A DNA stretch of 64,000 nucleotides from Methyloligellaceae bacterium (GCA_965263345.1 CBDHHC010000004.1:339777-403776); one strand, 5' to 3'. Counted from the stretch's first letter, positions 1 through 60,806 are shown. The notes: generated by a model from the sequence alone, not told the origin. Program-made: numbers and translations.

Positions 1-138
1 CTGTTGATAGGCTTTAGCAAGCGCATTCATGAAGGCTTTTTTTGAAATACCACACCCGACCCATTTTAACTCTGCAGCGTGTGATGAAACTGAAAACATT
101 ATTAAACTTGCGGTAAGGATAAGAAATCTCTTAAACAT
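1..138 (-). CDS. 5' part of a periplasmic substrate-binding protein (PBP-like); runs off the window edge
   Basis: Manual translation from ATG at 138: MFKRFLILTASLIMFSVSSHAAELKWVGCGISKKAFMNALAKAYQQ. Signal peptide ending SHA-A, then a PBP-like N-terminus. Confidence 0.65.
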   Translation of the reverse strand, partial: MFKRFLILTASLIMFSVSSHAAELKWVGCGISKKAFMNALAKAYQQ

Positions 139-310
139 TCAATGGCCTATATAGCTTTGAGTTGAAAAATTCTAATTTAGTGACTAATTATAGATTATTT
201 ATCCTAAAAAAAAGCTAATAACAGTTGTTAATTTTATATTTTGAGACATTCTAAGCTGGTGGGAAAAGATTATTTAAGTGCTGAATCATTGGTAGTCATA
301 GTGTTTTGAA

Positions 311-395
311 TGGTGCGGGTGGGGAGAATCGAACTCCCACTCCCGAAGGAACGGGATTTTGAATCCCGCGCGTCTACCAATTCCGCCACACCCGC
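311..395 (-). tRNA. tRNA-Leu(CAA)
   Basis: Minus strand reads GCGGGTGTGGCGGAATTGGTAGAC...CGGGA-TTCAAAA-TCCCG...GTTCGATTC...CCCGCACCA: long variable arm, anticodon CAA, encoded CCA. Confidence 0.97.
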
Positions 396-629
396 ACTTT
401 GGTATGAAAATCGGCCTCTTATTAAGGATTGAGACGATTGTCGGTAGATGTGAAACGTGATCATAAGCATAGAATATGCTGCGTCAATATATAAGTTCGT
501 GTTTTTCAATTTGACTGTTATTTTCTTTACTTTAAAAGACAGTATAACATTATTTTTCTTAGGATATTTGTTAGATATCTCCCACACTTTCATCTTTTCT
601 TTGTGGCAATTAATAAGAGCGGTTGAACA

Positions 630-1265
630 ATGACCACACAAGCACAAATTCGCAGCATGACTGACCTTTTGGGCGACCTACAGGAAAGTGTTACTCAAGA
701 GTCCATTAGTTTTGGGGAAATTCTTGAGGCTTTCCATGAGCGAGGCTTTGGGTTCTTTCTGTTTATTTTCGCGTTACCCATGGCGCTTCCTTTGCCCGTT
801 CCTCCTGGGATCAATGTGTTGCTCGCAAGCCCGCTTTTGCTTTTAACGGCCCAACAGGCACTTGGACGCCATACAATCTGGATGCCGCAGGCGATAAAGA
901 AGAGGTCTTTGTCAAAAGACAAGCTTGATAAGATTATCGATACCTCTTCCCCCTGGCTGAGAAGAATTCAGTCTTTGGTGTTCCCAAGACTTGGCTTTAT
1001 TACCCACGGTATTTTCAGCAATATTATTGGACTTCTTGGTTTCATTATGGCCTTGTCAGTCTGTGTGCCTATTCCACTGACAAATACTGTTCCAAGCCTT
1101 GGTATTGCTTTGATGGCGATTGGGGTTTTGATGAGGGATGGTCTTGCTGTGCTGGCTGGTGCCATTATCGGGTCTGCCTGGGTGGCGATGCTCGTGGCTG
1201 TGACAGTTATTTTTGGGATGGAAGGTGTTGAAATCGCGAAGTCCTTTATTAAGTCTCTGTTTTAA
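630..1265 (+). CDS. exoD: Exopolysaccharide biosynthesis ExoD-family membrane protein
   Basis: ERGFGFFLFIFALPMALPLP and PIPLTNTVPSLGIALMAIG..RDG motifs; 211 aa hydrophobic. Confidence 0.85.
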   Translation: MTTQAQIRSMTDLLGDLQESVTQESISFGEILEAFHERGFGFFLFIFALPMALPLPVPPGINVLLASPLLLLTAQQALGRHTIWMPQAIKKRSLSKDKLDKIIDTSSPWLRRIQSLVFPRLGFITHGIFSNIIGLLGFIMALSVCVPIPLTNTVPSLGIALMAIGVLMRDGLAVLAGAIIGSAWVAMLVAVTVIFGMEGVEIAKSFIKSLF

Positions 1266-1308
1266 GCTAATGGTTATGAATAATCTTTTTTAAAATTAAG
1301 AGCTTGAT

Positions 1309-1818
1309 ATGTTCGCTGACCTGCAAAAAGCCCCGCCATTGTATATGTCCCTCGTGACACTCATTACTGCAAGTCTGGTGATTTTGGCTTCTGCCTGGGG
1401 GTTTGAGATCTTTGGCGGATATGCCCCCTGCCCGCTTTGCTTGAAGCAAAGATGGGCTTATTATTTTGCTATTGCTAGCCTTGTTCCTGCTCTTTTGCTT
1501 TATCGACATGATTATAAGATTGCTGTCTATATTATATTAGCTGCCGTGGTGCTTGCATTTATAGCGAACAGCATTTTTGGGGTTTATCATTCTGGCATTG
1601 AATGGAAATGGTGGGATGGACCAGCTTCTTGTGCTGGCGGAGGCGATGTCGGTGGTGGTGCTTCAGGCATTCTGGAAAAACTTAAAACGACACGTTTTAT
1701 AAGATGTGATGAAGCGCCCTGGCGTTTTCTAGGGATTTCTTTTGCTGGCTATAATGCTATATTTTCTGCTTTGCTTGCTGGTATTGGCGCTTATGGTTTA
1801 TTCGGTCGCAAAGATTAA
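1309..1818 (+). CDS. dsbB: Disulfide bond formation protein B
   Basis: PCPLCLKQR, second Cys pair (GPASC...RCDEAPWRFLGIS), four TM segments. Confidence 0.88.
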   Translation: MFADLQKAPPLYMSLVTLITASLVILASAWGFEIFGGYAPCPLCLKQRWAYYFAIASLVPALLLYRHDYKIAVYIILAAVVLAFIANSIFGVYHSGIEWKWWDGPASCAGGGDVGGGASGILEKLKTTRFIRCDEAPWRFLGISFAGYNAIFSALLAGIGAYGLFGRKD

Positions 1819-1839
1819 TTTATTTTTTAAGGTGGAATT

Positions 1840-2127
1840 ATGAGTATTTTGCGTATTTATGAATTTCAAGCCTCAGAAGGTCATTCCGATGGTCTTCATG
1901 TTTTCCTTAAAGATTTAATGGCTCATATGAGCCAGGTTGATGGGTGTCTTGATACTCAAATCTATAGAGGTGCTAAAAACTCAGAGAAATTCGTTGTTAT
2001 TGAGAGTTGGGCTTCTCAAGAACATCACGAAAAATCTTTTGAGCATTTCCCTAAAGAGAAGATGCAGGCTGCCAAACATTTGTTTGGAGGGCCTCCTCAA
2101 GGTGATTATTTCATAGATGCTTCTTGA
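1840..2127 (+). CDS. Antibiotic biosynthesis monooxygenase (ABM) family protein
   Basis: 95 aa with GCL....R.....KFVVIESWASQEHH pattern. Confidence 0.75.
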   Translation: MSILRIYEFQASEGHSDGLHVFLKDLMAHMSQVDGCLDTQIYRGAKNSEKFVVIESWASQEHHEKSFEHFPKEKMQAAKHLFGGPPQGDYFIDAS

Positions 2128-2362
2128 GCCGATCTCTTGCTTTGAAAATCGTATAGTCAGTTTTGTCCTCTTACATGAAGGTTGATGGCAGCCTCATTTT
2201 TGTCATAAATCGACATGGTTGCGAAAAATTATCAAATTTTTAAAAGATTATTTTTCGCAAAAAAAGAATCATTTTTTTACTCGCCAAATTCTATTGATAA
2301 ACTGGTTTAGCTTACCAATATAATCCTTTCATCAAGAAGCTTTTTTTCAGTTAATAAAATTC

Positions 2363-2377
2363 TTAATAAATCGTTAA
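2363..2377. promoter_or_regulatory. CtrA-box-like site
   Basis: TTAA-TAAATCG-TTAA (TTAA-N7-TTAA), extra TTAA half-site at 2351, GANTC at 2381. Confidence 0.45.
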
Positions 2378-2484
2378 AACGAATCAAAATGCTTGCCATG
2401 TGTTTCAAATGACACATATTTTATGTCTGGTTTTTAGAGAATCTGCGAAAGTTTTCCTCTGCCAGAGGACTAAAAAAGTTATGG

Positions 2485-2500
2485 TTAACAAAGGGTTAAC
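2485..2500. promoter_or_regulatory. CtrA binding site
   Basis: TTAA-CAAAGGG-TTAAC, an exact TTAA-N7-TTAAC match. Confidence 0.6.
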
Positions 2501-2593
2501 AATTGTCAAAATTGGGACAGATACCGTTCACATTGTAAACATAATCTTGAGTAGAAATAAAACTCAACAAGGCGATAAAAAAACGCCAGGCAC

Positions 2594-2621
2594 TTGAAAG
2601 AACCAAAAGAGAACATATATA
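2594..2621 (+). promoter_or_regulatory. sigma70-type promoter with an alphaproteobacterial LexA (SOS) box in the spacer
   Basis: TTGAAA (2594-2599), GAAC-CAAAAGA-GAAC (2600-2614, GAAC-N7-GAAC), TATATA (2616-2621). Confidence 0.75.
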
Positions 2622-2661
2622 GGATTTATTATAAAACAAAAGTTAACAGAGAGTGAAATCC

Positions 2662-2865
2662 ATGAGTAAAGGGTCTACTTTTACACCAGTTGGAGCGGAA
2701 ACAAATAAGATTATCTCTAGAATACTTGAGAAAAGATCTGGAAATAATTTTAATACTTTAAATAGGAAAGAAATACTTGAAGTGAGAGGAAATGATAATA
2801 CCCCCAATATCAATTCTTCTGCGTCTCTTCAGCTTAATCTTTTCGAACATGCTGTAGGCAGTTGA
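2662..2865 (+). CDS. Small hypothetical protein (67 aa), probably SOS-inducible, with C-terminal QLNLF motif
   Basis: ATG at 2662 (alternative GTG at 2653) after AGAGAG and directly downstream of the LexA-boxed promoter; ends SLQLNLFEHAVGS. Confidence 0.6.
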   Translation: MSKGSTFTPVGAETNKIISRILEKRSGNNFNTLNRKEILEVRGNDNTPNINSSASLQLNLFEHAVGS

Positions 2866-2891
2866 ACATATAAGAACTGAGACAGGAGTTA

Positions 2892-2999
2892 ATGAAGTTA
2901 GGCAAATACATTCAAAAGAACAGAACCACCGATGGCTTCGTATGGCATAGTCCCGCGTTTCGTCGCCACCCTCTTGAATGTATTTGCCGCCAAATTTGA
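2892..2999 (+). CDS. Putative 35-aa peptide
   Basis: AGGAG RBS at 2884-2888, then MKLGKYIQKNRTTDGFVWHSPAFRRHPLECICRQI*. RBS spacing is short and the ORF is below the track cutoff. Confidence 0.35.
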   Translation: MKLGKYIQKNRTTDGFVWHSPAFRRHPLECICRQI

Positions 3000-3670
3000 G
3001 AGTAACAGGGAAAATTATCTGCCCCACTCTGTTACCCTCAATTTAAACATGAGCGTATTTGCTATTTCTTGCTCTAGCCCCCTCATGGAAATAGCAAAAT
3101 CATGTTGCAAGCGGAGTGTATCGAGTTTGCTTGTATTTAAGTAGTGTATGAGTTGCGTAAGTGTAGTAGAGTTAAGCGTTTTATTAAGTTTGCGTATTGT
3201 TGCGTTAAGAGTACATGGTTTTAATTGGTTTTGCGTATCCAGTAAGTTGCGTTGTGTAGCAAGACGTGAGTGTTTTAAAACGTCTTAGTATTCATGATGG
3301 TATGCGTTTTTTACCTGTGTTCATGAGTCTGTCTTATTCGTTGTGTAGAGTATCATGAGTAATGCGTACTTGTAGTGTTTGAGTATTTGTATCAGTTGAG
3401 TTGCGTATACGTATGAGTTATTGCGTAGTTGTATTGCGTAAGCGTAAAAAGTATTGAGTATCTGAGTAAGTTAGTATTGTTGCGTAAATTTAGTAGCGTA
3501 TTGAGTAAAGCAGTATTTTCATGCCCCCAAATACATGACTATGCTGTCAGTAAGTGTAAAGCGTATTGAGTATTAAACTATAAATAGCGTACCCCGTTAT
3601 AGGAATTATGCGGAAAACTCCGAACTCAGACTTATCTTACCCCTCAAGTCTGAGTTCGGTATTTCTATCT
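2998..3670 (+). ncRNA. Putative long structured non-coding RNA or 3' trailer with repeated G(C/A/U)GUA motifs and C-rich-loop hairpins
   Basis: No credible ORF; about 28 strand-biased GHGTA pentamers; hairpins at 2998-3039, 3046-3106, 3510-3547, 3578-3602 and 3620-3659 each with CCCC(C) in the loop; ends at a terminator. Confidence 0.55.
3620..3670 (+). terminator. Intrinsic terminator, probably bidirectional
   Basis: Perfect 14-bp stem CCGAACTCAGACTT/AAGTCTGAGTTCGG followed by TATTTCTATCT; lies 25 nt beyond the stop of the convergent TauE gene. Confidence 0.8.
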
Positions 3671-3684
3671 CTTCTGAAATCCTC

Positions 3685-4608
3685 TTAAACAACTACTGCT
3701 GATAATAATATCCAAATTGTACATAACCATTTTATTGGGTTAGCGCCAATGCGGGTTACTGTTAGACGAGCGATATATCCCCCGATTATTGCCCCTGGTG
3801 CTACCATTAAAGCAATATCTAATCTTAACGCGGGATTATCCCAGATAAAGAATGCGCAACATAAAACTGTTACAGATGTTGTCACAACAGCAAGTCCGAT
3901 TGCATCAACAGCGTCATATCTTCGTAAAATTAGATATACTGCTAAGAGCTCACCAACACCTATAGAAATCCACGAGACCAATACCCCTCCAGCAATGCCA
4001 ACGATTATCAAAGGAATGATCTCAAAATTTAAATTGTTTTCAGGGTTTCTTTCTGTTTTATTTCCAAACAATAAAGAAAAGAGCATGAAGCATCCAAGAA
4101 TTAATGAGAGATATTTAAATAATACAATTATATCATTAGACGCTTTTATATTGTAATGCAGACACAAAGCGGCGGAAATGCTTGAAAAGACACTCACCAA
4201 TATTGCAATGAAGTAAAAATTTGATGTGCTAAGACGACCCTTTTGGGGATTGGCTAGCCTATGGGATTGATAAGCCATTGATCCCATTGTCATACCAAAA
4301 CACTGAATTAAAATGCTCGATGTAAGTATCGAAGCATTTGACAGACCTAAATAATAAAAGGCAGGGACAAATATGATTCCTCCACCAACACCAGTTGCAT
4401 TGGCAAAAAAAGCTCCAAAAACTCCTAATAGGATGAGCCAAATATTCTGAAAAATAATGTCAGAGCTTAATAATGTTACGATTAAGCTCACACATATGAT
4501 TGGGTTAATAATTTTTATAAACCAAATAACTCTCAGACCGAGCCGGGTATATTCTTCGTTTGTTTTTGAAATATTATATTTTTGTAAAAGCATATTAAGT
4601 ATCACCAT
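3685..4608 (-). CDS. Sulfite exporter TauE/SafE family membrane protein
   Basis: GAFFANATGVGGGIIFVP and GGVLVSWISIGVGE repeats; multiple TM segments. True start may be downstream. Confidence 0.8.
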   Translation of the reverse strand: MVILNMLLQKYNISKTNEEYTRLGLRVIWFIKIINPIICVSLIVTLLSSDIIFQNIWLILLGVFGAFFANATGVGGGIIFVPAFYYLGLSNASILTSSILIQCFGMTMGSMAYQSHRLANPQKGRLSTSNFYFIAILVSVFSSISAALCLHYNIKASNDIIVLFKYLSLILGCFMLFSLLFGNKTERNPENNLNFEIIPLIIVGIAGGVLVSWISIGVGELLAVYLILRRYDAVDAIGLAVVTTSVTVLCCAFFIWDNPALRLDIALMVAPGAIIGGYIARLTVTRIGANPIKWLCTIWILLSAVVV

Positions 4609-4705
4609 AACTCAATTCATAGGCGCTGAATTAAAGCACAATGGAACAAAATATGTCAAAAGTAGAATAAACTGTTTGTTATATTAAGCCTAATACAATT
4701 TTGTT

Positions 4706-4882
4706 TTACAGTTCAGTTCCAAAGAACATTGAGGCTACACCTAGGCCTACTGCCATAACACATGCTAATGCAGTTTTTGCAGAACTCTTCGTTAAGAATA
4801 TTCCAGAACACTTATTCTCAATTTTTTCAGCTAGAGGTGTGTTCAAAATTTCAGAATTTACCATTGAAATCGTATTCATCAT
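4706..4882 (-). CDS. Small membrane protein (58 aa), not in the ORF track
   Basis: GGGAG RBS, then MMNTISMVNSEILNTPLAEKIENKCSGIFLTKSSAKTALACVMAVGLGVASMFFGTEL*; one C-terminal TM helix. Confidence 0.5.
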   Translation of the reverse strand: MMNTISMVNSEILNTPLAEKIENKCSGIFLTKSSAKTALACVMAVGLGVASMFFGTEL

Positions 4883-5072
4883 AATATCTCCCGTTTCCTT
4901 TAATGATGTCTTGATGTTGAAATCATATTGTCATAGAGGCTCAGGGGAAGATGTGATATTCATCACAGTTTTTAAAATTGTTCTATTCTGGAAATTTCAA
5001 ATGTTATTAGAAATATGAGTTAAGTTATTGTTACTTATAACTATTTGTTTTTTTAAATACTATATTCACATC

Positions 5073-5106
5073 CAGAGCACATATTTGTGAACATATATGC
5101 GCTCTG
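5073..5106. terminator. Stem-loop downstream of the double-ATPase gene
   Basis: CAGAGCACATAT...ATATGCGCTCTG inverted repeat about 26 nt past the stop; no clear U tract. Confidence 0.4.
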
Positions 5107-5132
5107 AAAAGAATATTCGTTTTAGCAATTCA

Positions 5133-8100
5133 TTATCCAAAATCAAACAGGAGTTGGTTTTTACGCTTTCGTTTTGTTGGATGTCTTGCGGTATCTGCCG
5201 CAAGATCTTCAATGCGATCAAACGGAACTTGATCTGCCTGAACCAATGATCTTTCTGCCTTAATTGATTTAATTGCTCCTTCCTGAATCAGGTGGAACTC
5301 ACCAACTTTTTGGTTTGGTAATACAGCTGCAGGATCAATACCCGTTTCGCTTGTAAATGCAGCTTTTAGTTTCCTTAAAGCTGTATCTTCCCTAACCTTA
5401 CCAATAAACCATGATGTTATCTGGTCTCTTGATTTATAGTCTAAGTCACCAGGACTTTGCGTTGCCAACATCAAGCCGATTCCTGCCGAGCGTGCTCGTT
5501 TAAGCAAACTTTCAAGAGGCTCTTTTGTTGCAGGTTTTGAATTTGCAGGGATGTATAAGTCAGCTTCATCAAACATGATAACTGCTTGAAGATCTTCATT
5601 TGGGTTTCTTTGACAAAAACGTAGAGCTTCTGCAAGGAACTGGGCGACCCAAAAGAGGATATTTTCATTGTCACCCAAGAAACCGGTATAAATTACAGAA
5701 AGACGTGTTTTATCTGAGCGTGCATATTTACCCAATCCCAAAAGAGAGTCCATTGTTAGAGGTTCCCCGCCTCCTTCAAACAAGGCCCAATTTCTATGAC
5801 GTAATGAATCAAGCTGTGCAACAAGATCTCTTCTTAGTTTACCAGAAGGGTCCATACGATATGTTTCATCGACAACTTCGCTATGGTCATCCTCAAGAAG
5901 ACCTATCAGGTCAGCAAGTGTGACTTCTCTTGCACTGATTGCCCCTAATAAGCGAAGTGCAACAGTCAGAATTCCACCCTGTCTTTGATGCGTCGCTGAA
6001 TTACCTAGGTGTAACATATCACTTAAGGCAGCAGCTGATACATTTGCCAATTGTTGCTGTTCATGAGCGGGAAGATCTGCAACACCATTTGGCATCAATG
6101 TGATGGATATTGGACGTCCTGAAATGCGACCAGGCGTGTAAACTGCTACATCTAAATTTTCTTTTAGTTTTTCACGAATTTCGCGCCGCTCATCACTTAA
6201 ACTTAAGTCATCTTCCCAAACTTCTGGGTTTGCATAGCTACATAAATCACCCTTGCGGTCGATGAGGATGACAGGGATCTCTCTATCCAAAAGCTGTTCG
6301 ATGATGTTCAGAGCAAGTGTTGTTTTACCACTACCTGAGCCACCTAATACTGCAGCATGACGTTTTAAGGTATTTACAGGGAAAATGACTTGTTCTTTTT
6401 TATTTTCAATTACCCGACCGACATTAATTTTATCTGGATCAGAAACCAGTTCTTCTATTTCATTTTCTAATACAAGTTCTTCAGTTTGTTGTTCAGACTG
6501 TTCGCCATTTTGCTCTTCTGCTACCAAGTCATTATTTTCCATATCAATTGACTTGTTGGCAAAATCAACATGATGGATGTTACTTTCAGCATTTTGCATC
6601 TGCCCATTAGCAGACGTTCCATTGATGTGATGAACTTGTTGAATTGTTTGATCTGCGGTATTTTCCACCATTTTGATTGGTTGAGCAGACTTTGGTTGCG
6701 TTGTCTCTGTTAAATCCAATCTTAGTAGATAACGAATACCTGGCAGATCTTTTAAGATGCGCGAAACTTTCATCCAATCTGAAAAACCTGTCTGGCTTTT
6801 ATTCGCATCCCTAAATTCCTGAAGTGTGATTATACGTTCCCACTCATAGATCGGAATGACAAGAGTATGACCACCATCCTGATTAAACTGTCTTAATAAA
6901 TCACTTGTTGCACTTTTCTTGCTTGGTGGAAAATCACTTGTTCTTAAAATAATTGAGTCTTTATTTTCCGTGCTGCATAGAACTTTTTCCAATTGTCTCT
7001 TTAATCCGCCCCCCTGGCTCCCTTTATTACAAACAAAAAGTCTATATTCGACTGTCGGCATGTCTGTATATTCGAGCGTTAAATCAATCGCAGAAACACC
7101 TTCAATCCAAGATGGCTCAACTGATACGCGCGTATCAGCCATTCCTTCTTCGCGGCTCAATAGCAGGGCAGAGGTAAGGATATTAATTAACTCATCTTCA
7201 TCAGATGGGATATCGGCCTCATGAGCAGAGGCAAAATGCTCCCATTTCTGCTGGATCATACTGACTTCATTTTCTTTTTGTTGATCCGGCATGAGTGTTG
7301 GAGAGACTTTTTGAATTTTGTCTTCTTCAGCTATCTCTTCACCACATATTTCACGACGTTTTATTTCAGCAGCTTCTAGAAGACGTCTGGTTGAGAGGCC
7401 CGCCATTTCGTTGACAAAGGTATCGCCAAATACCTGTTCGACCTCAGCTTCAGTTGTATCTTCTGACTTTGACACAATGTGCTTCAGTCGGCGCTTAAGG
7501 ATAAGCCGTGCTTCTTCTTCCGTGCGAGATTCTCGCAAGATAACCGGGCCAGCTTTCTCAATTCTATCTACAAATGATTGGGGTAAAAATTCTCTCATTT
7601 GAAAATAAAAATCATCTAAGCAGGAAATAAGTATTATTGCGGATGGCACTCGGTTCGCAATTTGTATTAAGTCTCTTATTGCTTTTTGGAACCGCTCTTC
7701 AGCATCATCATAAAACCTTAAGTCTTCAACCTGATCAATACAAAAAACCATTGCCGCTTTTTCAGTCGTCCACATTAAACGGCCTATTGACTCAATAATC
7801 TCAAACGAACGATCTTCTCCATCATTTGGGTCTAATGCAGCAACGGACTCACTGCTTAACTCATTCAAATGACGACCATAAAGATACTGCCTGATACGTT
7901 GATCAATTTTTGGATCATTACGCTGAAGATAAAGCAGTGCCCTTACAATATTGATATCTAATTCTTGATCTATGAATTTATCAGATGAGACGATACCATC
8001 TGCAATATTCATGATTAAACGTGCCAAGTCTATGTTTGACAAATCCTCATCACGTAGTTTGCTCAGATCCTCTTCTGGGATGAGTTCTGCGTCAGAAACC

Positions 8101-8516
8101 AATGCATTGGTCAGTCTGGACAAACTGTTTGCAGATGCCTGTATCGGACTATATGGTTTTTCTAAGGAATTTATTAGCCTGCGCAAATAGTAGTCTGCGT
8201 AGTTTTTAATGTCCGGTGTCATTTGCGCATAGCCAAAATAACCTTTATCAGCGCAATGGGAATAGGACCTTAATGCCCTAATGAGATGTGTTTTCCCTGC
8301 CCCTGATTGCCCTTGGAACATTAAGATACGAGATTGTACCTGAGTATTTCCCTCAGTAATTGCAAACAATAAATCTAAATATTTTTTACGCGCGGTACGA
8401 TGCACCTGCTCTACATCAAAATAGTCCGCTTTCCATACATCGTCTTCCCAGGTGATATTATGATCAAAGACCCAAGAAGCTTGTTCGGAACACATTAAAT
8501 TCTGAACGCTGTCCAT
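5133..8516 (-). CDS. Double P-loop protein: N-terminal AAA-like ATPase plus C-terminal HerA/FtsK-like (DUF87/DUF853) ATPase
   Basis: GQSGAGKT and VFCIDQVE; then RHAAVLGGSGSGKT, IMFDEAD and RARSAGIGLMLATQSPGD (HerA signature). Confidence 0.85.
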   Translation of the reverse strand: MDSVQNLMCSEQASWVFDHNITWEDDVWKADYFDVEQVHRTARKKYLDLLFAITEGNTQVQSRILMFQGQSGAGKTHLIRALRSYSHCADKGYFGYAQMTPDIKNYADYYLRRLINSLEKPYSPIQASANSLSRLTNALVSDAELIPEEDLSKLRDEDLSNIDLARLIMNIADGIVSSDKFIDQELDINIVRALLYLQRNDPKIDQRIRQYLYGRHLNELSSESVAALDPNDGEDRSFEIIESIGRLMWTTEKAAMVFCIDQVEDLRFYDDAEERFQKAIRDLIQIANRVPSAIILISCLDDFYFQMREFLPQSFVDRIEKAGPVILRESRTEEEARLILKRRLKHIVSKSEDTTEAEVEQVFGDTFVNEMAGLSTRRLLEAAEIKRREICGEEIAEEDKIQKVSPTLMPDQQKENEVSMIQQKWEHFASAHEADIPSDEDELINILTSALLLSREEGMADTRVSVEPSWIEGVSAIDLTLEYTDMPTVEYRLFVCNKGSQGGGLKRQLEKVLCSTENKDSIILRTSDFPPSKKSATSDLLRQFNQDGGHTLVIPIYEWERIITLQEFRDANKSQTGFSDWMKVSRILKDLPGIRYLLRLDLTETTQPKSAQPIKMVENTADQTIQQVHHINGTSANGQMQNAESNIHHVDFANKSIDMENNDLVAEEQNGEQSEQQTEELVLENEIEELVSDPDKINVGRVIENKKEQVIFPVNTLKRHAAVLGGSGSGKTTLALNIIEQLLDREIPVILIDRKGDLCSYANPEVWEDDLSLSDERREIREKLKENLDVAVYTPGRISGRPISITLMPNGVADLPAHEQQQLANVSAAALSDMLHLGNSATHQRQGGILTVALRLLGAISAREVTLADLIGLLEDDHSEVVDETYRMDPSGKLRRDLVAQLDSLRHRNWALFEGGGEPLTMDSLLGLGKYARSDKTRLSVIYTGFLGDNENILFWVAQFLAEALRFCQRNPNEDLQAVIMFDEADLYIPANSKPATKEPLESLLKRARSAGIGLMLATQSPGDLDYKSRDQITSWFIGKVREDTALRKLKAAFTSETGIDPAAVLPNQKVGEFHLIQEGAIKSIKAERSLVQADQVPFDRIEDLAADTARHPTKRKRKNQLLFDFG

Positions 8517-8525
8517 TCATTACCT

Positions 8526-9596
8526 CTAATCTTCTACGCGGATAAAGTGCCACTCTGTGTTTTTATAACGCGTAACTGAATTCTGAATATCTGTAATATT
8601 TTCTTTGTCTCGCAAATCAGCAATTGCGAGCGTGAGATGCCCTGCTCTATGGGCATCTGTCAGCATGGATTTAAACGCATGCTCATCTAGTTTTAAATCT
8701 GTTTTTTCATTCTTTATGCAATCCCAAACATGGGAAATATATGCGCGTTTGTTTCCTGACCAACCTTTAGCCCGTGTTTTAGCAAGTTTATGAACGATTC
8801 CTGAAAACTTCACTAAATCCATAGATGTTTTCGGAAGATCATATGATTTTAATAGCAGGCTTTCATCTTTATTGACCTTCGTTTTTTCAGACCTATTTAC
8901 TAATTTACGAATTAATGCAAGTCGCAAAGCACTCGGATCTGCCTGTAATGAGCCGACAGCCTCTGCGGCAAGAAGTGTTAAAAGTTGGCTTGAAGTTTCC
9001 ACCTCTCGTGGTCTGTGTAACTTTCGACTGGCCAGAAATAGTGCCAACTTTTCCGGGACTCTAGAGTTTCCTGAAAACTTACTTTCTTTAGGTGCTTCAA
9101 AAGCTTCTCCGATCGTATGTAAAGCTAGCGCATTTCTTATTTGTACTGCCCCAGGTATTTCTGCTTTCAAAGGTAAGTTAAAATATTTTTTTACTATTGC
9201 AGCTCGAATTCCTTCAGCCATTTTTAAAGGCTTGAGGGTTTTTGAGGACCTTGACTTTAGCTCTAACGCTTTTGCTATCAGATAAACAGCTTTGAACTCT
9301 TTCCAATCCTTCGTCGGTAAAGTTTTTAAATTTAGAAAATCCAATACAGACTTCAGCCCATCATTTTGAGCTACAAACCGGTCTTTATTGAGAGTTCCGA
9401 TTAAATTTTGTTCTAACAAATTATCCAATACATCTTTAAGAGTTTGGCGCCATTCGCCTGGACTTAGTCGATGCGATACAAATGGTTGAATCTCATTTTT
9501 AAGATCAGAAAAGGTACACCCTGTATCCCCAGCACACAAAATACGCAGAACAATTATTCGGGCTAGGCTGGATTGATCAAGCATTCCTTCGCTCAT
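8526..9596 (-). CDS. Conserved hypothetical basic protein, putative DNA-binding partner of the ATPase
   Basis: 356 aa; winged-helix-like N-terminus (FSDLKNEI...LDNLLEQNLIGTLNKDRFV); 9-nt gap to the ATPase gene implies an operon. Confidence 0.75.
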   Translation of the reverse strand: MSEGMLDQSSLARIIVLRILCAGDTGCTFSDLKNEIQPFVSHRLSPGEWRQTLKDVLDNLLEQNLIGTLNKDRFVAQNDGLKSVLDFLNLKTLPTKDWKEFKAVYLIAKALELKSRSSKTLKPLKMAEGIRAAIVKKYFNLPLKAEIPGAVQIRNALALHTIGEAFEAPKESKFSGNSRVPEKLALFLASRKLHRPREVETSSQLLTLLAAEAVGSLQADPSALRLALIRKLVNRSEKTKVNKDESLLLKSYDLPKTSMDLVKFSGIVHKLAKTRAKGWSGNKRAYISHVWDCIKNEKTDLKLDEHAFKSMLTDAHRAGHLTLAIADLRDKENITDIQNSVTRYKNTEWHFIRVED

Positions 9597-10019
9597 GGTT
9601 TGCTTCCACTTCCCAGCTGATTATTCTGTTGTCATATCTTCAATGCTAAACATCTATACATCACTAGATGTCTGCTAATTCGCCCTATCGATCACAACTA
9701 TATATATTTTCCTTATAATTTACATCATGCATTTATTATGCATATCTGTAAAATCCTAAGCGCTTATTAACGAGCTTTGAAGAGATTAGATTTATTCATC
9801 AATGTGGTTATATATGTTGTATTTATGCAATTAATTCTTATAGCTGATTTGACAATAAAATCATATACGCAGGGCTTGATTGATACACAAAAAAATGCGT
9901 TTTTTTCTTCATTTACAATATACTGAAGACAATTATTAACATTTTTAAAGAATTATTTTGTAGATAACCAACTACAAAACATAATTGGTTATCATGACAA
10001 ATATCATTGTGTCATTTGC

Positions 10020-60245: not shown

Positions 60246-60806
60246 GTGATAGCAAATGCAGGATCACCCGATGCTTATCCGGCCTTGGTTTTAAATGCTG
60301 ACTATAGGCCTCTTAGCTATTATCCTCTGTCACTTTGGAGCTGGCAGGAAACAGTAAAGGCTGTGTTCCTTAACAGGGTTAACATCGTCTCAGAATATGA
60401 AAGATGTGTTAACAGCCCTAGTTTCCAGATGAAGTTGCCTAGTGTTGTTTGTCTTAAAAACTATGTTCGCCCGGCACTTTACCCAGCTTTTACACGCTTT
60501 AACGTGTTCTTACGTGACAGATTTACATGCCAATATTGCGGTTCTATGGAAGACCTTACATTTGACCATCTTATTCCACGCTCAAAAGGTGGACTAACAA
60601 CATGGGACAATGTGGTTACTGCCTGTGCACCTTGTAATTTGGCTAAAGGTGGAGACATGCCCGAGGATGTTGGCATGATTCCAGATCAAATGCCTTACAG
60701 GCCAACAGTTCATGAACTCCATCGTAATGGTCGGTTATTCCCACCTAATTACCTTCATGACAGTTGGATGGACTTCCTGTATTGGGATACAGAACTTGAA
60801 CCTTAG
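60246..60806 (+). CDS. HNH endonuclease (conserved McrA-like)
   Basis: LVLNADY.PL, RD.FTCQYCG, TFDH.IPRS.GG..W.NVV.AC..CN..K motifs; GAGGAG RBS. Confidence 0.93.
   Translation: MIANAGSPDAYPALVLNADYRPLSYYPLSLWSWQETVKAVFLNRVNIVSEYERCVNSPSFQMKLPSVVCLKNYVRPALYPAFTRFNVFLRDRFTCQYCGSMEDLTFDHLIPRSKGGLTTWDNVVTACAPCNLAKGGDMPEDVGMIPDQMPYRPTVHELHRNGRLFPPNYLHDSWMDFLYWDTELEP

What the first reader, a model, noticed from the sequence alone, without database searches (positions are those of the whole stretch)
3000..3591. About 28 same-strand G(C/A/T)GTA pentamers with irregular spacing in a G+T-skewed tract
Seen, by manual count: GCGTA x13 (3053, 3155, 3192, 3233, 3364, 3403, 3423, 3436, 3442, 3482, 3496, 3561, 3587), GAGTA x9 and GTGTA x6, plus several GCGTT. 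I saw no TACGC (reverse complement). AGCGTATTGAGTA recurs exactly at 3495 and 3560. Only a few such pentamers are expected by chance, and the aperiodic spacing excludes a simple tandem repeat. Inference: a multivalent single-stranded binding platform, organised like CsrB/RsmZ GGA arrays but with a GHGUA motif, which could titrate an RNA-binding protein or endoribonuclease. Alternatives: a C-rich/G-poor Rho-utilisation zone on the minus strand, or an oriented DNA-protein loading array.
Basis: partly seen in the sequence, partly recalled or inferred. Interest (0 to 1): 0.8.

Follow-up and report, generated by a model that had tools for sequence, protein, structure and literature searches.

The report
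Damage-linked RNA carrying a pentamer array
A stretch packed with 28 same-strand copies of a five-letter motif is part of a conserved RNA, probably switched on by DNA damage, that occurs across a whole order of alphaproteobacteria and whose binding partner is still unknown.

Summary
Window 3000-3591 holds 13 GCGTA, 9 GAGTA and 6 GTGTA on the + strand and no reverse complement. That density is unique in the 3.99-Mb genome (27 per 600 nt; 7 is the maximum elsewhere).

The tract is not isolated. It lies in a roughly 1-kb unit: a sigma-70-like promoter overlapped by a perfect alphaproteobacterial LexA (SOS) box, a 67-aa ORF ending in a UmuC-type QLNLF clamp-binding motif, a covarying 15-16-bp helix, the array, then two hairpins.

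All 9 genomes carrying the ORF (4 families) show this layout, although the array DNA no longer aligns. Sixty-two further Hyphomicrobiales loci have the same helix and a same-strand array (GCGTH 1692 versus 202 opposite). There it lies behind a LexA box and ahead of a different small ORF.

G-U pairs and compensatory changes mark the ORF strand as the folded strand, so I read it as RNA. Most likely it is a DNA-damage-induced multivalent binding platform. No RNA-seq was available, and the partner is unidentified.

It is not a CsrB/Rsm member: no GGA, no CsrA, no Rfam hit. A minus-strand rut zone is disfavoured.

The parts
2485..2500 (+). TTAA-N7-TTAAC, a CtrA-box-like sequence upstream of the promoter (possible second regulator)
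   Evidence: Read. Similar sequences occur in G001, G143, G103 and G006. The CtrA consensus is recalled and was not tested.
2594..2621 (+). Promoter-like region: -35 TTGAAA (2594-2599), LexA/SOS box GAAC-N7-GAAC (2600-2614), -10 TATATA (2616-2621)
   Evidence: Sequence. The box is perfect at the aligned position in 6 of 8 orthologous promoters, has one mismatch in G001 and is degenerate in G002. The consensus GTTCN7GTTC comes from PMC9578287 Table 1. In G000, perfect boxes also precede a Y-family polymerase, ssb and a ComM-like gene.
2662..2865 (+). ORF1, 67 aa, no known family. Conserved N-terminal helix, NDN motif and C-terminal QLNLF (beta-clamp-binding-motif-like).
   Evidence: Substitutions between G143 and G103 by codon position are 4/0/16. 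Only 11-12 relatives were found in 5.8 and 1.84 billion proteins. QLNLF equals the UmuC motif (PMC3716654).
2901..2988 (+). Helix H1: a 15-bp stem (2901-2915 with 2974-2988) enclosing the invariant GTCCCGCGT (2950-2958), which holds a motif copy
   Evidence: RNAalifold and pair counts on 5 sequences: 92.5% paired, 9 of 16 pairs with double changes, 0 of 500 shuffles as high. The covariance model finds it in 29 of 73 further sources, always on the ORF strand: 96.7% paired, 12 of 16 pairs compensatory, many G-U.
2996..3098 (+). Two further hairpins (about 2996-3040 and 3058-3098) with C-rich loops
   Evidence: The fold of 2866-3100 has z = -3.74, and 0 of 200 shuffles fold as well. Hairpins stand at the same places in G001, by eye.
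3053..3591 (+). The array: 27 of the 28 G(C/A/T)GTA copies (the 28th, GAGTA at 3000, lies in hairpin H2) plus GCGTT copies. Dense core 3116-3591. Extended consensus (T/A)(T/A)G(C/A)GTA(A/T).
3593..3613 (+). Small hairpin Pa, directly after the last motif copy
   Evidence: Alignment of the 3' ends of 8 orthologues. The stem changes as CCGC/GCGG, CCGCA/TGCGG, CCGTA/TGCGG and TTCGC/GCGAA, read by eye.
3620..3666 (+). Long hairpin Pb (3620-3633 with 3646-3659) followed by UAUUUCU; the likely 3' end of the transcript
   Evidence: In G002 and G059 the stem has G-U pairs that would be A-C on the other strand (read).

Best explanation
The tract is the repeat-bearing body of a roughly 1.0-kb + strand transcript (about 2625 to 3666). 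The unit consists of a promoter overlapped by a LexA (SOS) operator, a 67-aa ORF, a covarying helix H1, the pentamer array and two terminal hairpins. It is the AT-shifted local form of an element shared by many Hyphomicrobiales. In that element, 13-53 same-strand UG(C/A)GU(H) sites sit in a LexA-box-controlled RNA next to H1. Proposed mechanism: DNA damage removes LexA, the RNA accumulates, and its many sites (28 in this window) bind many copies of a factor specific for single strands. The RNA would then either sequester that factor or gather it on a scaffold. H1 and the last site before hairpin Pa would serve as fixed, structured copies of the site. What is shown: the enrichment, uniqueness in the genome, strand constancy, motif conservation despite sequence turnover, covarying helices with G-U pairs, and a conserved LexA-box-like sequence. 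What is inferred: transcription itself, induction by the SOS response, action as RNA rather than DNA, and protein binding. The partner is unknown. ORF1 is the only candidate by linkage within its own lineage.
For: 1. Uniqueness and enrichment.
2. Orthologues keep the motif but not the sequence. A DNA search of 61 genomes finds only a 95-nt match in G001. Yet same-strand versus opposite-strand counts in the region after ORF1 are 28/0, 29/2, 15/0, 8/1, 9/0, 8/0, 18/0 and 9/0 in 8 genomes. GCGTA and GAGTA are the top de novo 5-mers in 8 of 8 genomes (60 versus 9.0 expected, and 48 versus 9.6).
3. G143 and G103 swap GAGTA and GCGTA at aligned sites.
4. ORF1 and the array occur in every genome of 4 families.
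5. In 62 further loci found through a second small ORF, GCGTH counts are 1692 same-strand versus 202 opposite upstream, against 357 versus 333 downstream. TGCGT is 645:33.
6. H1 covaries and has G-U pairs on the ORF strand.
7. The LexA box is conserved: 6 of 8 promoters and 43 of 57 loci with at least 1400 nt upstream. The same box precedes SOS-type genes in G000.
8. G000 lost ORF2 but kept and enlarged the array. That argues for a role of the RNA or array itself rather than a leader function for ORF2.
9. The spacing is irregular, with a minimum of 5 nt and no helical phasing overall.
Against: No expression data exist: no RNA run holds the stretch. Predicted folding does not place the motifs preferentially in unpaired positions, and the array fold is not distinguishable from shuffles (z = -1.34). 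No other motif clusters that could mark competing targets exist in the genome (10 triple clusters versus about 7 expected). No candidate RNA-binding protein was found: G000 has no CsrA and no RRM, and ORF1 is not basic and is mostly disordered (pLDDT 59.8). The SOS and clamp context would fit a DNA-level role equally well. Some relatives show local 10-11-nt spacing (G059, G006). A perfect GAAC-N7-GAAC is not rare by itself (79 genome-wide versus about 97 expected), so its weight rests on conservation of position.
Confidence: 0.45

Rival explanations
1. The array works as DNA. It is an oriented array of sites for a single-strand- or double-strand-specific DNA-binding factor. The sites could be exposed on the non-template strand when the SOS promoter fires (R-loop) or on a replication template strand, and the function could be linked to the clamp-binding ORF1.
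For: The context concerns DNA metabolism: a LexA box and a QLNLF clamp-type motif in ORF1. Orientation is strict. Local 10-11-nt periodicity occurs in G059 and G006. TTGCGTAA is a near-palindrome (read from the sequence).
Against: The array is embedded between helices that covary and use G-U pairs, so at least its flanks act as RNA. The fixed motif copies sit inside those RNA structures. Spacing is mostly irregular, down to 5 nt. The locus lies 1.1 Mb from dnaA in G050; that contig's length was not determined, so a position near the terminus is not ruled out. Contig C4 shows no clear skew switch. There is no genome-wide orientation bias of the pentamers in the window (GCGTA 36 versus TACGC 32, with 13 of the 36 in the array).
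Confidence: 0.2
2. The array is a cis-acting transcription or RNA-processing device. It could be a run of RNA polymerase pause sites, Rho or antitermination sites, or nuclease sites. Such a device would delay or gate expression of the downstream gene (ORF2 in most lineages) or set the mRNA half-life.
For: In 62 loci the array is a 700-1400-nt leader between the LexA-box promoter and ORF2. About half the sites read TG(C/T)G, which resembles the core of the consensus pause element (recalled). A long untranslated leader needs some way of handling Rho.
Against: In the G000 family and in f58 there is no downstream gene, and ORF2 is undetectable in G000. Yet G000, G001 and G002 keep large arrays (15-29 copies), while f58 keeps only 8-9. 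GAGTA, about 39% of sites across the 8 orthologues, does not fit a Y at pause position -1. The conserved TA or TH after the G is not part of the pause consensus (recalled).
Confidence: 0.2
3. The array is a C-rich, G-poor Rho-utilisation zone for minus-strand read-through.
For: The minus-strand RNA of 3100-3600 is C-rich, G-poor and unstructured (z = +1.04). In 7 of the 9 ORF1-carrying genomes a convergent HNH gene ends at hairpin Pb.
Against: The window and G001 have lost the convergent HNH gene and have the largest arrays. In the 62 ORF2 loci the array lies between two co-directional genes, so no minus-strand gene reads into it. UACGC contains no YC dimer (the rut definition is recalled). 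In relatives the skew is slight (mean GC skew +0.05). The hairpins use G-U pairs that would be A-C on the minus strand.
Confidence: 0.03
4. The array is a sponge or decoy for a base-pairing small RNA, or a decoy substrate for a sequence-specific endoribonuclease toxin.
For: The arrangement is many short identical sites on one RNA. SOS-controlled toxin systems exist in alphaproteobacteria (recalled).
Against: Position 2 accepts C, A or U but never G: 0 GGGTA in the window and at most 1 in any orthologue. No single complementary seed gives that pattern. No cluster of the complementary pentamer exists anywhere in the genome. No nuclease gene is linked to the locus in the loci read in full.
Confidence: 0.07

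Closest known systems
CsrB/RsmZ/RsmY protein-sponge RNAs (CsrA/RsmA system)
   Same: One RNA carries many short, irregularly spaced, same-strand copies of a motif. The motif is conserved while the surrounding sequence drifts, and the RNA ends in a hairpin.
   Different: The motif is UG(C/A)GU(H), not GGA (0 GGA in the array core). G000 has no CsrA gene, and no Rfam model matches. The RNA is about 1 kb, partly coding, and behind a LexA box rather than a GacA-type promoter. The motifs are not predicted to sit in loops.
[quoted passage not shown]
   Same: It is a DNA-damage-linked RNA whose function rests on many repeated short protein-binding sites. It works as a titrating platform for a genome-stability pathway.
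   Different: NORAD is eukaryotic and unrelated in sequence, its partner is known, and the motif is UGUANAUA (recalled). Here both induction and partner are inferred. This is an analogy of logic only.
CrcZ/CrcY of Pseudomonas (A-rich motif arrays that tie up Hfq/Crc; recalled)
   Same: Several copies of a short single-stranded motif on one RNA, acting by sequestration.
   Different: Different motif, many more copies here, and different regulation. No match in Rfam.
TRAP-binding (G/U)AG triplet arrays of Bacillus trp leaders (recalled)
   Same: Where copies abut, the pattern GNG-UA-GNG-UA is a triplet plus a 2-nt spacer, like a TRAP site. In most relatives the array is a 5' leader.
   Different: Most spacings are longer and irregular, there are up to 53 copies, and the clade is alphaproteobacterial. 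TRAP itself was not searched for.
LexA-regulated genes of alphaproteobacteria (SOS box GTTCN7GTTC; PMC9578287 Table 1)
   Same: A perfect box overlaps the promoter spacer and is conserved across the orthologues.
   Different: The calls returned no description of a LexA-regulated RNA with a repeat array, or of these small ORFs. LexA binding was not tested.

Membership tests
CsrB/Rsm sponge RNA family | Repeated GGA (ANGGA) motifs | tested here: not met
   0 GGA in the 392-nt array core of G000, and 0-1 in orthologues.
CsrB/Rsm sponge RNA family | A CsrA/RsmA protein encoded in the genome | tested here: not met
   PF02599 was not found in G000 (100% complete); the control genomes matched.
CsrB/Rsm sponge RNA family | Match to the Rfam covariance models | tested here: not met
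   No Rfam 15 family at E <= 1 in window 1-10000 except a tRNA and one chance hit. None in 9 related loci.
Protein-sponge or scaffold RNA (functional kind, not a family) | Many copies of one short motif on one strand, conserved as a motif while the sequence turns over | tested here: met
Protein-sponge or scaffold RNA (functional kind, not a family) | The RNA is expressed and binds its protein multivalently | not testable with these tools
   No RNA run was listed, and no protein-RNA tool is available.
Alphaproteobacterial SOS (LexA) regulon | GTTC-N7-GTTC operator at the promoter, conserved in orthologues | tested here: met
   Window 2600-2614 lies between the -35 and -10 elements. The box is perfect in 6 of 8 aligned promoters and in 43 of 57 further loci. 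In G000 it also precedes IMS polymerase, ssb and ComM-like genes (10 of 11 neighbouring ORFs were scanned, L029 was left out).
Alphaproteobacterial SOS (LexA) regulon | LexA binding and induction by DNA damage | not testable with these tools
   Needs EMSA or RNA-seq.
Beta-clamp-binding proteins (ORF1) | A QL[S/D]LF-type pentapeptide in a disordered, near-C-terminal segment | tested here: met
   QLNLF or QLSLF is invariant in 8 relatives, with QYQMF or QLRMF in f58. It is absent in G050 and G006. The motif definition comes from PMC3716654.
Beta-clamp-binding proteins (ORF1) | Physical binding to DnaN | not testable with these tools
   See Tried and rejected.
Type III toxin-antitoxin RNA (ToxI-like) | Regular tandem repeats of about 34-36 nt next to an endoribonuclease toxin gene | tested here: not met
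   No tandem repeat in the window. Neighbours are DsbB, ABM, TauE and a HerA/STAND ATPase.
Rho-utilisation (rut) region on the minus strand | A minus-strand gene reads into a C-rich, G-poor, unstructured RNA, conserved with that gene | tested here: not met
   The composition fits in G000. However, the array persists without the convergent gene, lies between co-directional genes in 62 loci, and the skew is slight there.

The most novel reading that the evidence does not exclude
This is a bacterial counterpart of a DNA-damage-activated sponge or scaffold RNA. When LexA is cleaved, Hyphomicrobiales would make a roughly 1-kb RNA whose 13-53 UG(C/A)GU(H) sites capture a so far unrecognised single-strand-binding factor of genome maintenance. 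In the G000 lineage the same RNA also encodes a 67-aa protein with a UmuC-type clamp-binding motif. RNA and peptide could then form a multivalent particle that gathers or withholds sliding clamps while damage persists.
Probability: 0.15. Interest if true: 0.9.

Novelty: new variant of a known kind. Interest (0 to 1): 0.78.

Why it matters
Alphaproteobacteria mostly lack CsrA (recalled; G000 itself has no CsrA gene). I know of no RNA with a protein-titrating repeat array under SOS control, and my searches found none.

This element is conserved across at least eight GTDB families of one order (f1, f3, f5, f13, f37, f43, f49, f58). By record titles it also occurs in Hyphomicrobiaceae, Devosia and Filomicrobium. 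It is unique in each locus examined and absent from Rfam.

It comes with clear handles for experiment: a LexA box, a covarying helix and two unknown small proteins. If it binds a factor, it defines a new RNA-binding specificity and a new branch of the bacterial DNA-damage response. If it acts as DNA, it is a new kind of oriented chromosomal array. Either way, the question can be tested directly in cultured, harmless carriers.

Tried and rejected
**Searches that gave nothing**
- RNA evidence: the look-up of sequencing runs listed no RNA holder.
- Complex prediction of ORF1 with G000 DnaN gave no verdict. It scored 0.65, but a control with an unrelated protein scored 0.58. This is evidence neither way.
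- AlphaFold2 of ORF1 gave low confidence (pLDDT 59.8).
- The ESM Atlas had no hit at 0.9 or above.
- No longer or fused forms of ORF1 were found.
- Foldseek of the confident ORF2 model (pLDDT 86) against the PDB gave no match at E <= 0.001.
- Pfam and NCBIfam found nothing for ORF1 or ORF2.
- The search for related loci failed on three alignments that were too variable and found nothing with P0010.
- The search of earlier findings returned nothing.
- A literature search on the raw motif was uninformative. Searches on SOS, small proteins, clamps and non-coding RNA found nothing describing this locus.

**Ideas rejected**
- Replication origin or terminus element: no clear skew switch on contig C4, and the locus lies 1.1 Mb from dnaA in G050. 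This is weak, because that contig's length was not determined.
- Chi-like sites: no genome-wide excess or orientation bias.
- Genomic island: the 57 kb between the array and the HNH gene holds housekeeping genes.
- Motifs sitting in loops: predicted unpaired probability does not differ between motif and non-motif positions.
- Other target clusters in the genome: none beyond chance.
- ORF2 as an obligatory partner: not detectable in G000.
- The weak ORF1 hit in G013 lies inside a longer ORF with no array. I counted it as false.

Full report
**1. The observation**

Window 3000-3591 holds 13 GCGTA, 9 GAGTA and 6 GTGTA on the + strand, plus 4 GCGTT. No reverse complement is present, and there is no GGGTA.

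Dinucleotide-preserving shuffles of the tract give 6.8 +/- 2.3 copies (maximum 15 in 2000) against 28 observed. In the whole 3.99-Mb genome (38.6% G+C), 600-nt windows hold 0.88 copies on average. All 9 windows with 9 or more copies belong to this locus (up to 27), and the next highest value is 7. There is no tandem periodicity.

The extended consensus is (T/A)(T/A)G(C/A)GTA(A/T).

**2. What surrounds it in the window**

Upstream lie tRNA-Leu, ExoD, DsbB and an ABM monooxygenase gene, all on the + strand except the tRNA. The locus itself then reads as follows:

- **Promoter, 2594-2621.** -35 TTGAAA, a 16-nt spacer and -10 TATATA. The spacer is filled by GAAC-N7-GAAC at 2600-2614.
- **ORF1, 2662-2865.** A 67-aa ORF.
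- **Structured stretch, 2866-3100.** Its fold has z = -3.74. It contains a 15-bp helix, H1, at 2901-2915 paired with 2974-2988.
- **The array.**
- **Hairpin Pa, about 3593-3613.**
- **Hairpin Pb, 3620-3659,** followed by UAUUUCU.
- **TauE, 3685-4608,** convergent on the minus strand.

No ORF of 50 aa or more covers 3145-3684 on either strand. Rfam 15 has no match.

**3. Orthologues with ORF1**

A DNA search of 61 relatives finds only a 95-nt match in the one other species of the genus. Reading that locus nevertheless shows the same order of parts, with 29 same-strand motif copies.

A profile of ORF1 finds 9 true carriers among 401 genomes of the order. The tenth hit, G013, lies inside a longer ORF without an array and I count it as false. 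The carriers are all the genomes held for four GTDB families: f1 3 of 3 including G000, f58 3 of 3, f49 1 of 1 and f5 2 of 2.

ORF1 is coding. Substitutions between G143 and G103 fall 4/0/16 by codon position. The family is tiny: 11 proteins among 5.8 billion and 12 representatives among 1.84 billion, all unnamed.

In the region from the ORF1 stop to hairpin Pb, same-strand versus opposite-strand counts are 28/0, 29/2, 15/0, 8/1, 9/0, 8/0, 18/0 and 9/0. GCGTA and GAGTA are the most enriched 5-mers, and both occur in 8 of 8 genomes. Between G143 and G103, aligned sites switch between GAGTA and GCGTA. G001 enlarged its array by a 40-nt, 3.3-copy duplication. Selection therefore acts on G-H-GUA sites, not on the sequence as a whole.

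**4. The RNA strand**

H1 is supported by covariation. On five sequences, 92.5% of cells pair, 9 of 16 pairs carry changes on both sides, and 0 of 500 shuffles reach the observed score. Controls with the partner slid by 1-3 columns pair at only 34-48%.

A covariance model built from these five finds H1 in 29 of 73 further sources, always on the ORF strand. In that alignment, which is fitted to the model, 96.7% of H1 cells pair and 12 of 16 pairs are compensatory. G-U and U-G pairs are frequent. Such pairs would be A-C on the other strand.

The loop of H1 holds the invariant GUCCCGCGU, a fixed copy of the motif. Another fixed copy directly precedes Pa, whose stem also changes in a compensatory way (by eye). 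Pb has G-U pairs in G002 and G059 (by eye). I conclude that the + strand is the functional single strand, most simply as RNA.

The array itself is not predicted to be more or less folded than shuffles (z = -1.34). Motifs are not preferentially unpaired in predicted ensembles.

**5. Regulation**

GAAC-N7-GAAC is the reverse reading of GTTCN7GTTC, the Caulobacter SOS box (PMC9578287, Table 1, seen as a passage). At the aligned promoter position it is perfect in 6 of 8 orthologues, has one mismatch in G001 and is degenerate in G002.

A perfect box is not rare by itself: there are 79 in the genome against about 97 expected. Its weight comes from conservation of position and from the other genes it precedes. 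Of 22 intergenic boxes, I scanned 10 of the 11 neighbouring ORFs (L029 was left out). Three are typical SOS genes: a Y-family polymerase, ssb and a ComM-like Mg-chelatase gene. recA and lexA carry one-mismatch versions.

LexA control is therefore likely but inferred.

ORF1 ends in an invariant QLNLF or QLSLF in eight relatives, and in QYQMF or QLRMF in f58. [quoted passage not shown] G050 and G006 lack this motif.

**6. The element is much wider than ORF1**

The convergent neighbour in most carriers is a housekeeping HNH gene, present in 136 of 151 genomes of the order. In G000 it sits 57 kb away on the other strand, at 60246-60806, behind housekeeping genes. This points to a rearrangement rather than an island.

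I inspected the flank beyond the HNH gene in 30 loci. This revealed arrays in genomes without ORF1 (G014, G044, G147, G038, G130). These genomes carry a second small ORF, ORF2:

- It is 66-75 aa long in most loci (about 90 aa in G006 and G065).
- Its signature is NPxQWxQAxGYARxxCARIFRDGGxPxDA.
- It folds as three helices with pLDDT 86.
- It has no Pfam, NCBIfam or PDB relative.

G050, G006 and G065 have both ORF1 and ORF2, which links the two forms of the locus.

A collection-wide scan with ORF2 returned 62 loci. Their titles name Hyphomicrobiaceae or Hyphomicrobiales MAGs, Filomicrobium insigne, Hyphomicrobium and Devosia. In the 1.5 kb upstream of ORF2, GCGTH occurs 1692 times on the ORF strand and 202 times on the other. 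Downstream the counts are 357 and 333. In all 60 loci with at least 700 nt of upstream sequence, the same-strand count (9-51) exceeds the opposite-strand count (0-9).

The most strand-biased 5-mers are TGCGT (645:33), GCGTC (617:33), GCGTT (503:43), GCGTA (280:15) and TGAGT (170:7). The median is 30.5 sites per locus.

A perfect LexA box in a conserved promoter context lies 700-1400 nt upstream of ORF2 in 43 of the 57 loci with enough sequence. A few loci also have a second perfect box about 1250-1320 nt upstream that seems to fall within the dsbB coding sequence; every such locus also has the promoter box. H1 lies 50-250 nt upstream of ORF2 in most of the 29 hits, and about 340-450 nt upstream in L084, L094 and L054.

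The general layout is therefore LexA-box promoter, array, H1, ORF2. In the G000 lineage it is LexA-box promoter, ORF1, H1, array, and ORF2 is lost. The G(C/A/T)GTA motif of the window is the AT-shifted form of UG(C/A)GU(H). The strong G+T skew is local; the mean GC skew in relatives is +0.05.

**7. Mechanism**

The array is kept, and enlarged, in a lineage where nothing lies downstream of it. That argues against a pure leader function such as delay, pausing or attenuation of ORF2. It argues for a role of the RNA, or of the array DNA, in its own right.

Several features fit a multivalent platform for a single-strand-specific factor made when LexA is inactivated:

- strict strand constancy;
- fixed motif copies built into covarying RNA structures;
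- irregular spacing down to 5 nt;
- fast turnover with motif retention.

I give this reading 0.45.

The partner is unknown. G000 has no CsrA and no RRM protein, and ORF2 is dispensable. ORF1 is linked to the array, but only in its own lineage, and it looks like a disordered peptide carrier rather than an RNA binder. No other motif clusters exist in the genome.

A DNA-level reading stays open at 0.2, given the SOS and clamp context. In that reading, non-template or template single strands, or direct-repeat operators, would be the functional form. A cis-acting transcription or processing device is given 0.2. A small-RNA or nuclease decoy is given 0.07, and the minus-strand rut idea 0.03.

**8. 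Comparison and novelty**

The element works like CsrB/RsmZ or CrcZ. In its link to DNA damage it resembles mammalian NORAD (listing and abstract starts only).

It fails every defining test of the CsrB family and is in no Rfam family. My literature searches found no description of it. Supplementary files could not be consulted.

I rate it a new variant of a known kind (repeat-array RNA). It has a new motif, new regulation and new associated proteins, and it is of high interest because it is widespread, sharply defined and testable.

Noticed in passing
window 60246-60806 (+), compared with 3620-3666: The HNH endonuclease gene lies convergent to the array, with its stop inside hairpin Pb, in G002, G143, G103, G059, G050, G006 and G065. 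In G000 it lies 57 kb away on the opposite strand. The interval holds housekeeping genes: ferrochelatase, pyruvate kinase, PepN, AsmA and PrkA. This suggests an inversion or rearrangement with a breakpoint at the hairpin. The hairpin kept next to the array still reads ..NTEL.. on the minus strand, like the HNH C-terminus DTELEP.
   Followed up: partly
L013 2080-2304, L038 2287-2487 (-), and loci L063-L124: ORF2 is a 66-75-aa protein (about 90 aa in G006 and G065) conserved across Hyphomicrobiales, with two invariant Trp and one invariant Cys (a second Cys nearly invariant). It has a confident three-helix model and no Pfam, NCBIfam or PDB relative. It always lies just downstream of helix H1. 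It is absent from G000.
   Followed up: partly
window 5133-8516 (-): A 1127-aa protein with two P-loop regions (AAA_16/STAND-like at the N-terminus, HerA/DUF87-like at 697-872). A 356-aa ORF without Pfam hits lies next to it at 8526-9596. This could be a defence-type NTPase pair.
   Followed up: no
window 2485-2500: A perfect TTAA-N7-TTAAC (CtrA-box-like; consensus recalled) lies about 100 nt upstream of the LexA-box promoter. Similar boxes occur in G001, G143, G103 and G006. This hints at cell-cycle control in addition to SOS control.
   Followed up: no
window 2662-2669: The ORF1 start reads ATGAGTAA in G000 and G001, so it contains a copy of the array motif TGAGTAA. Seven of the 8 orthologues use AGT for Ser2; G006 reads GTT (Val) there.
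   Followed up: no
G000 C10 upstream of recA; C16 upstream of lexA: The recA and lexA operators in this genome read GAAC-N7-GTAC and GTTC-N7-GTAC. They are one-mismatch variants in which GTAC replaces one half-site.
   Followed up: partly
window 2996-3098 and 3520-3537; L002 about 1590-1690 and 2205-2235: Hairpins flanking the array carry C-rich loops (GCCCCAC, GCCCCCUCAU, GCCCCCAAAU). CCCC is enriched in the transcripts of 7 of 8 genomes (28 versus 13.6 expected). They are reminiscent of the anti-Shine-Dalgarno loops of alphaproteobacterial small RNAs (recalled).
   Followed up: no
L120 770-1560 (Devosia MAG): The most extreme array seen has dozens of GCGTC, GCGTT and GCGTA copies in about 800 nt (51 GCGTH in the 1.5 kb upstream of ORF2), often abutting as GCGTCGCGTT.
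   Followed up: partly
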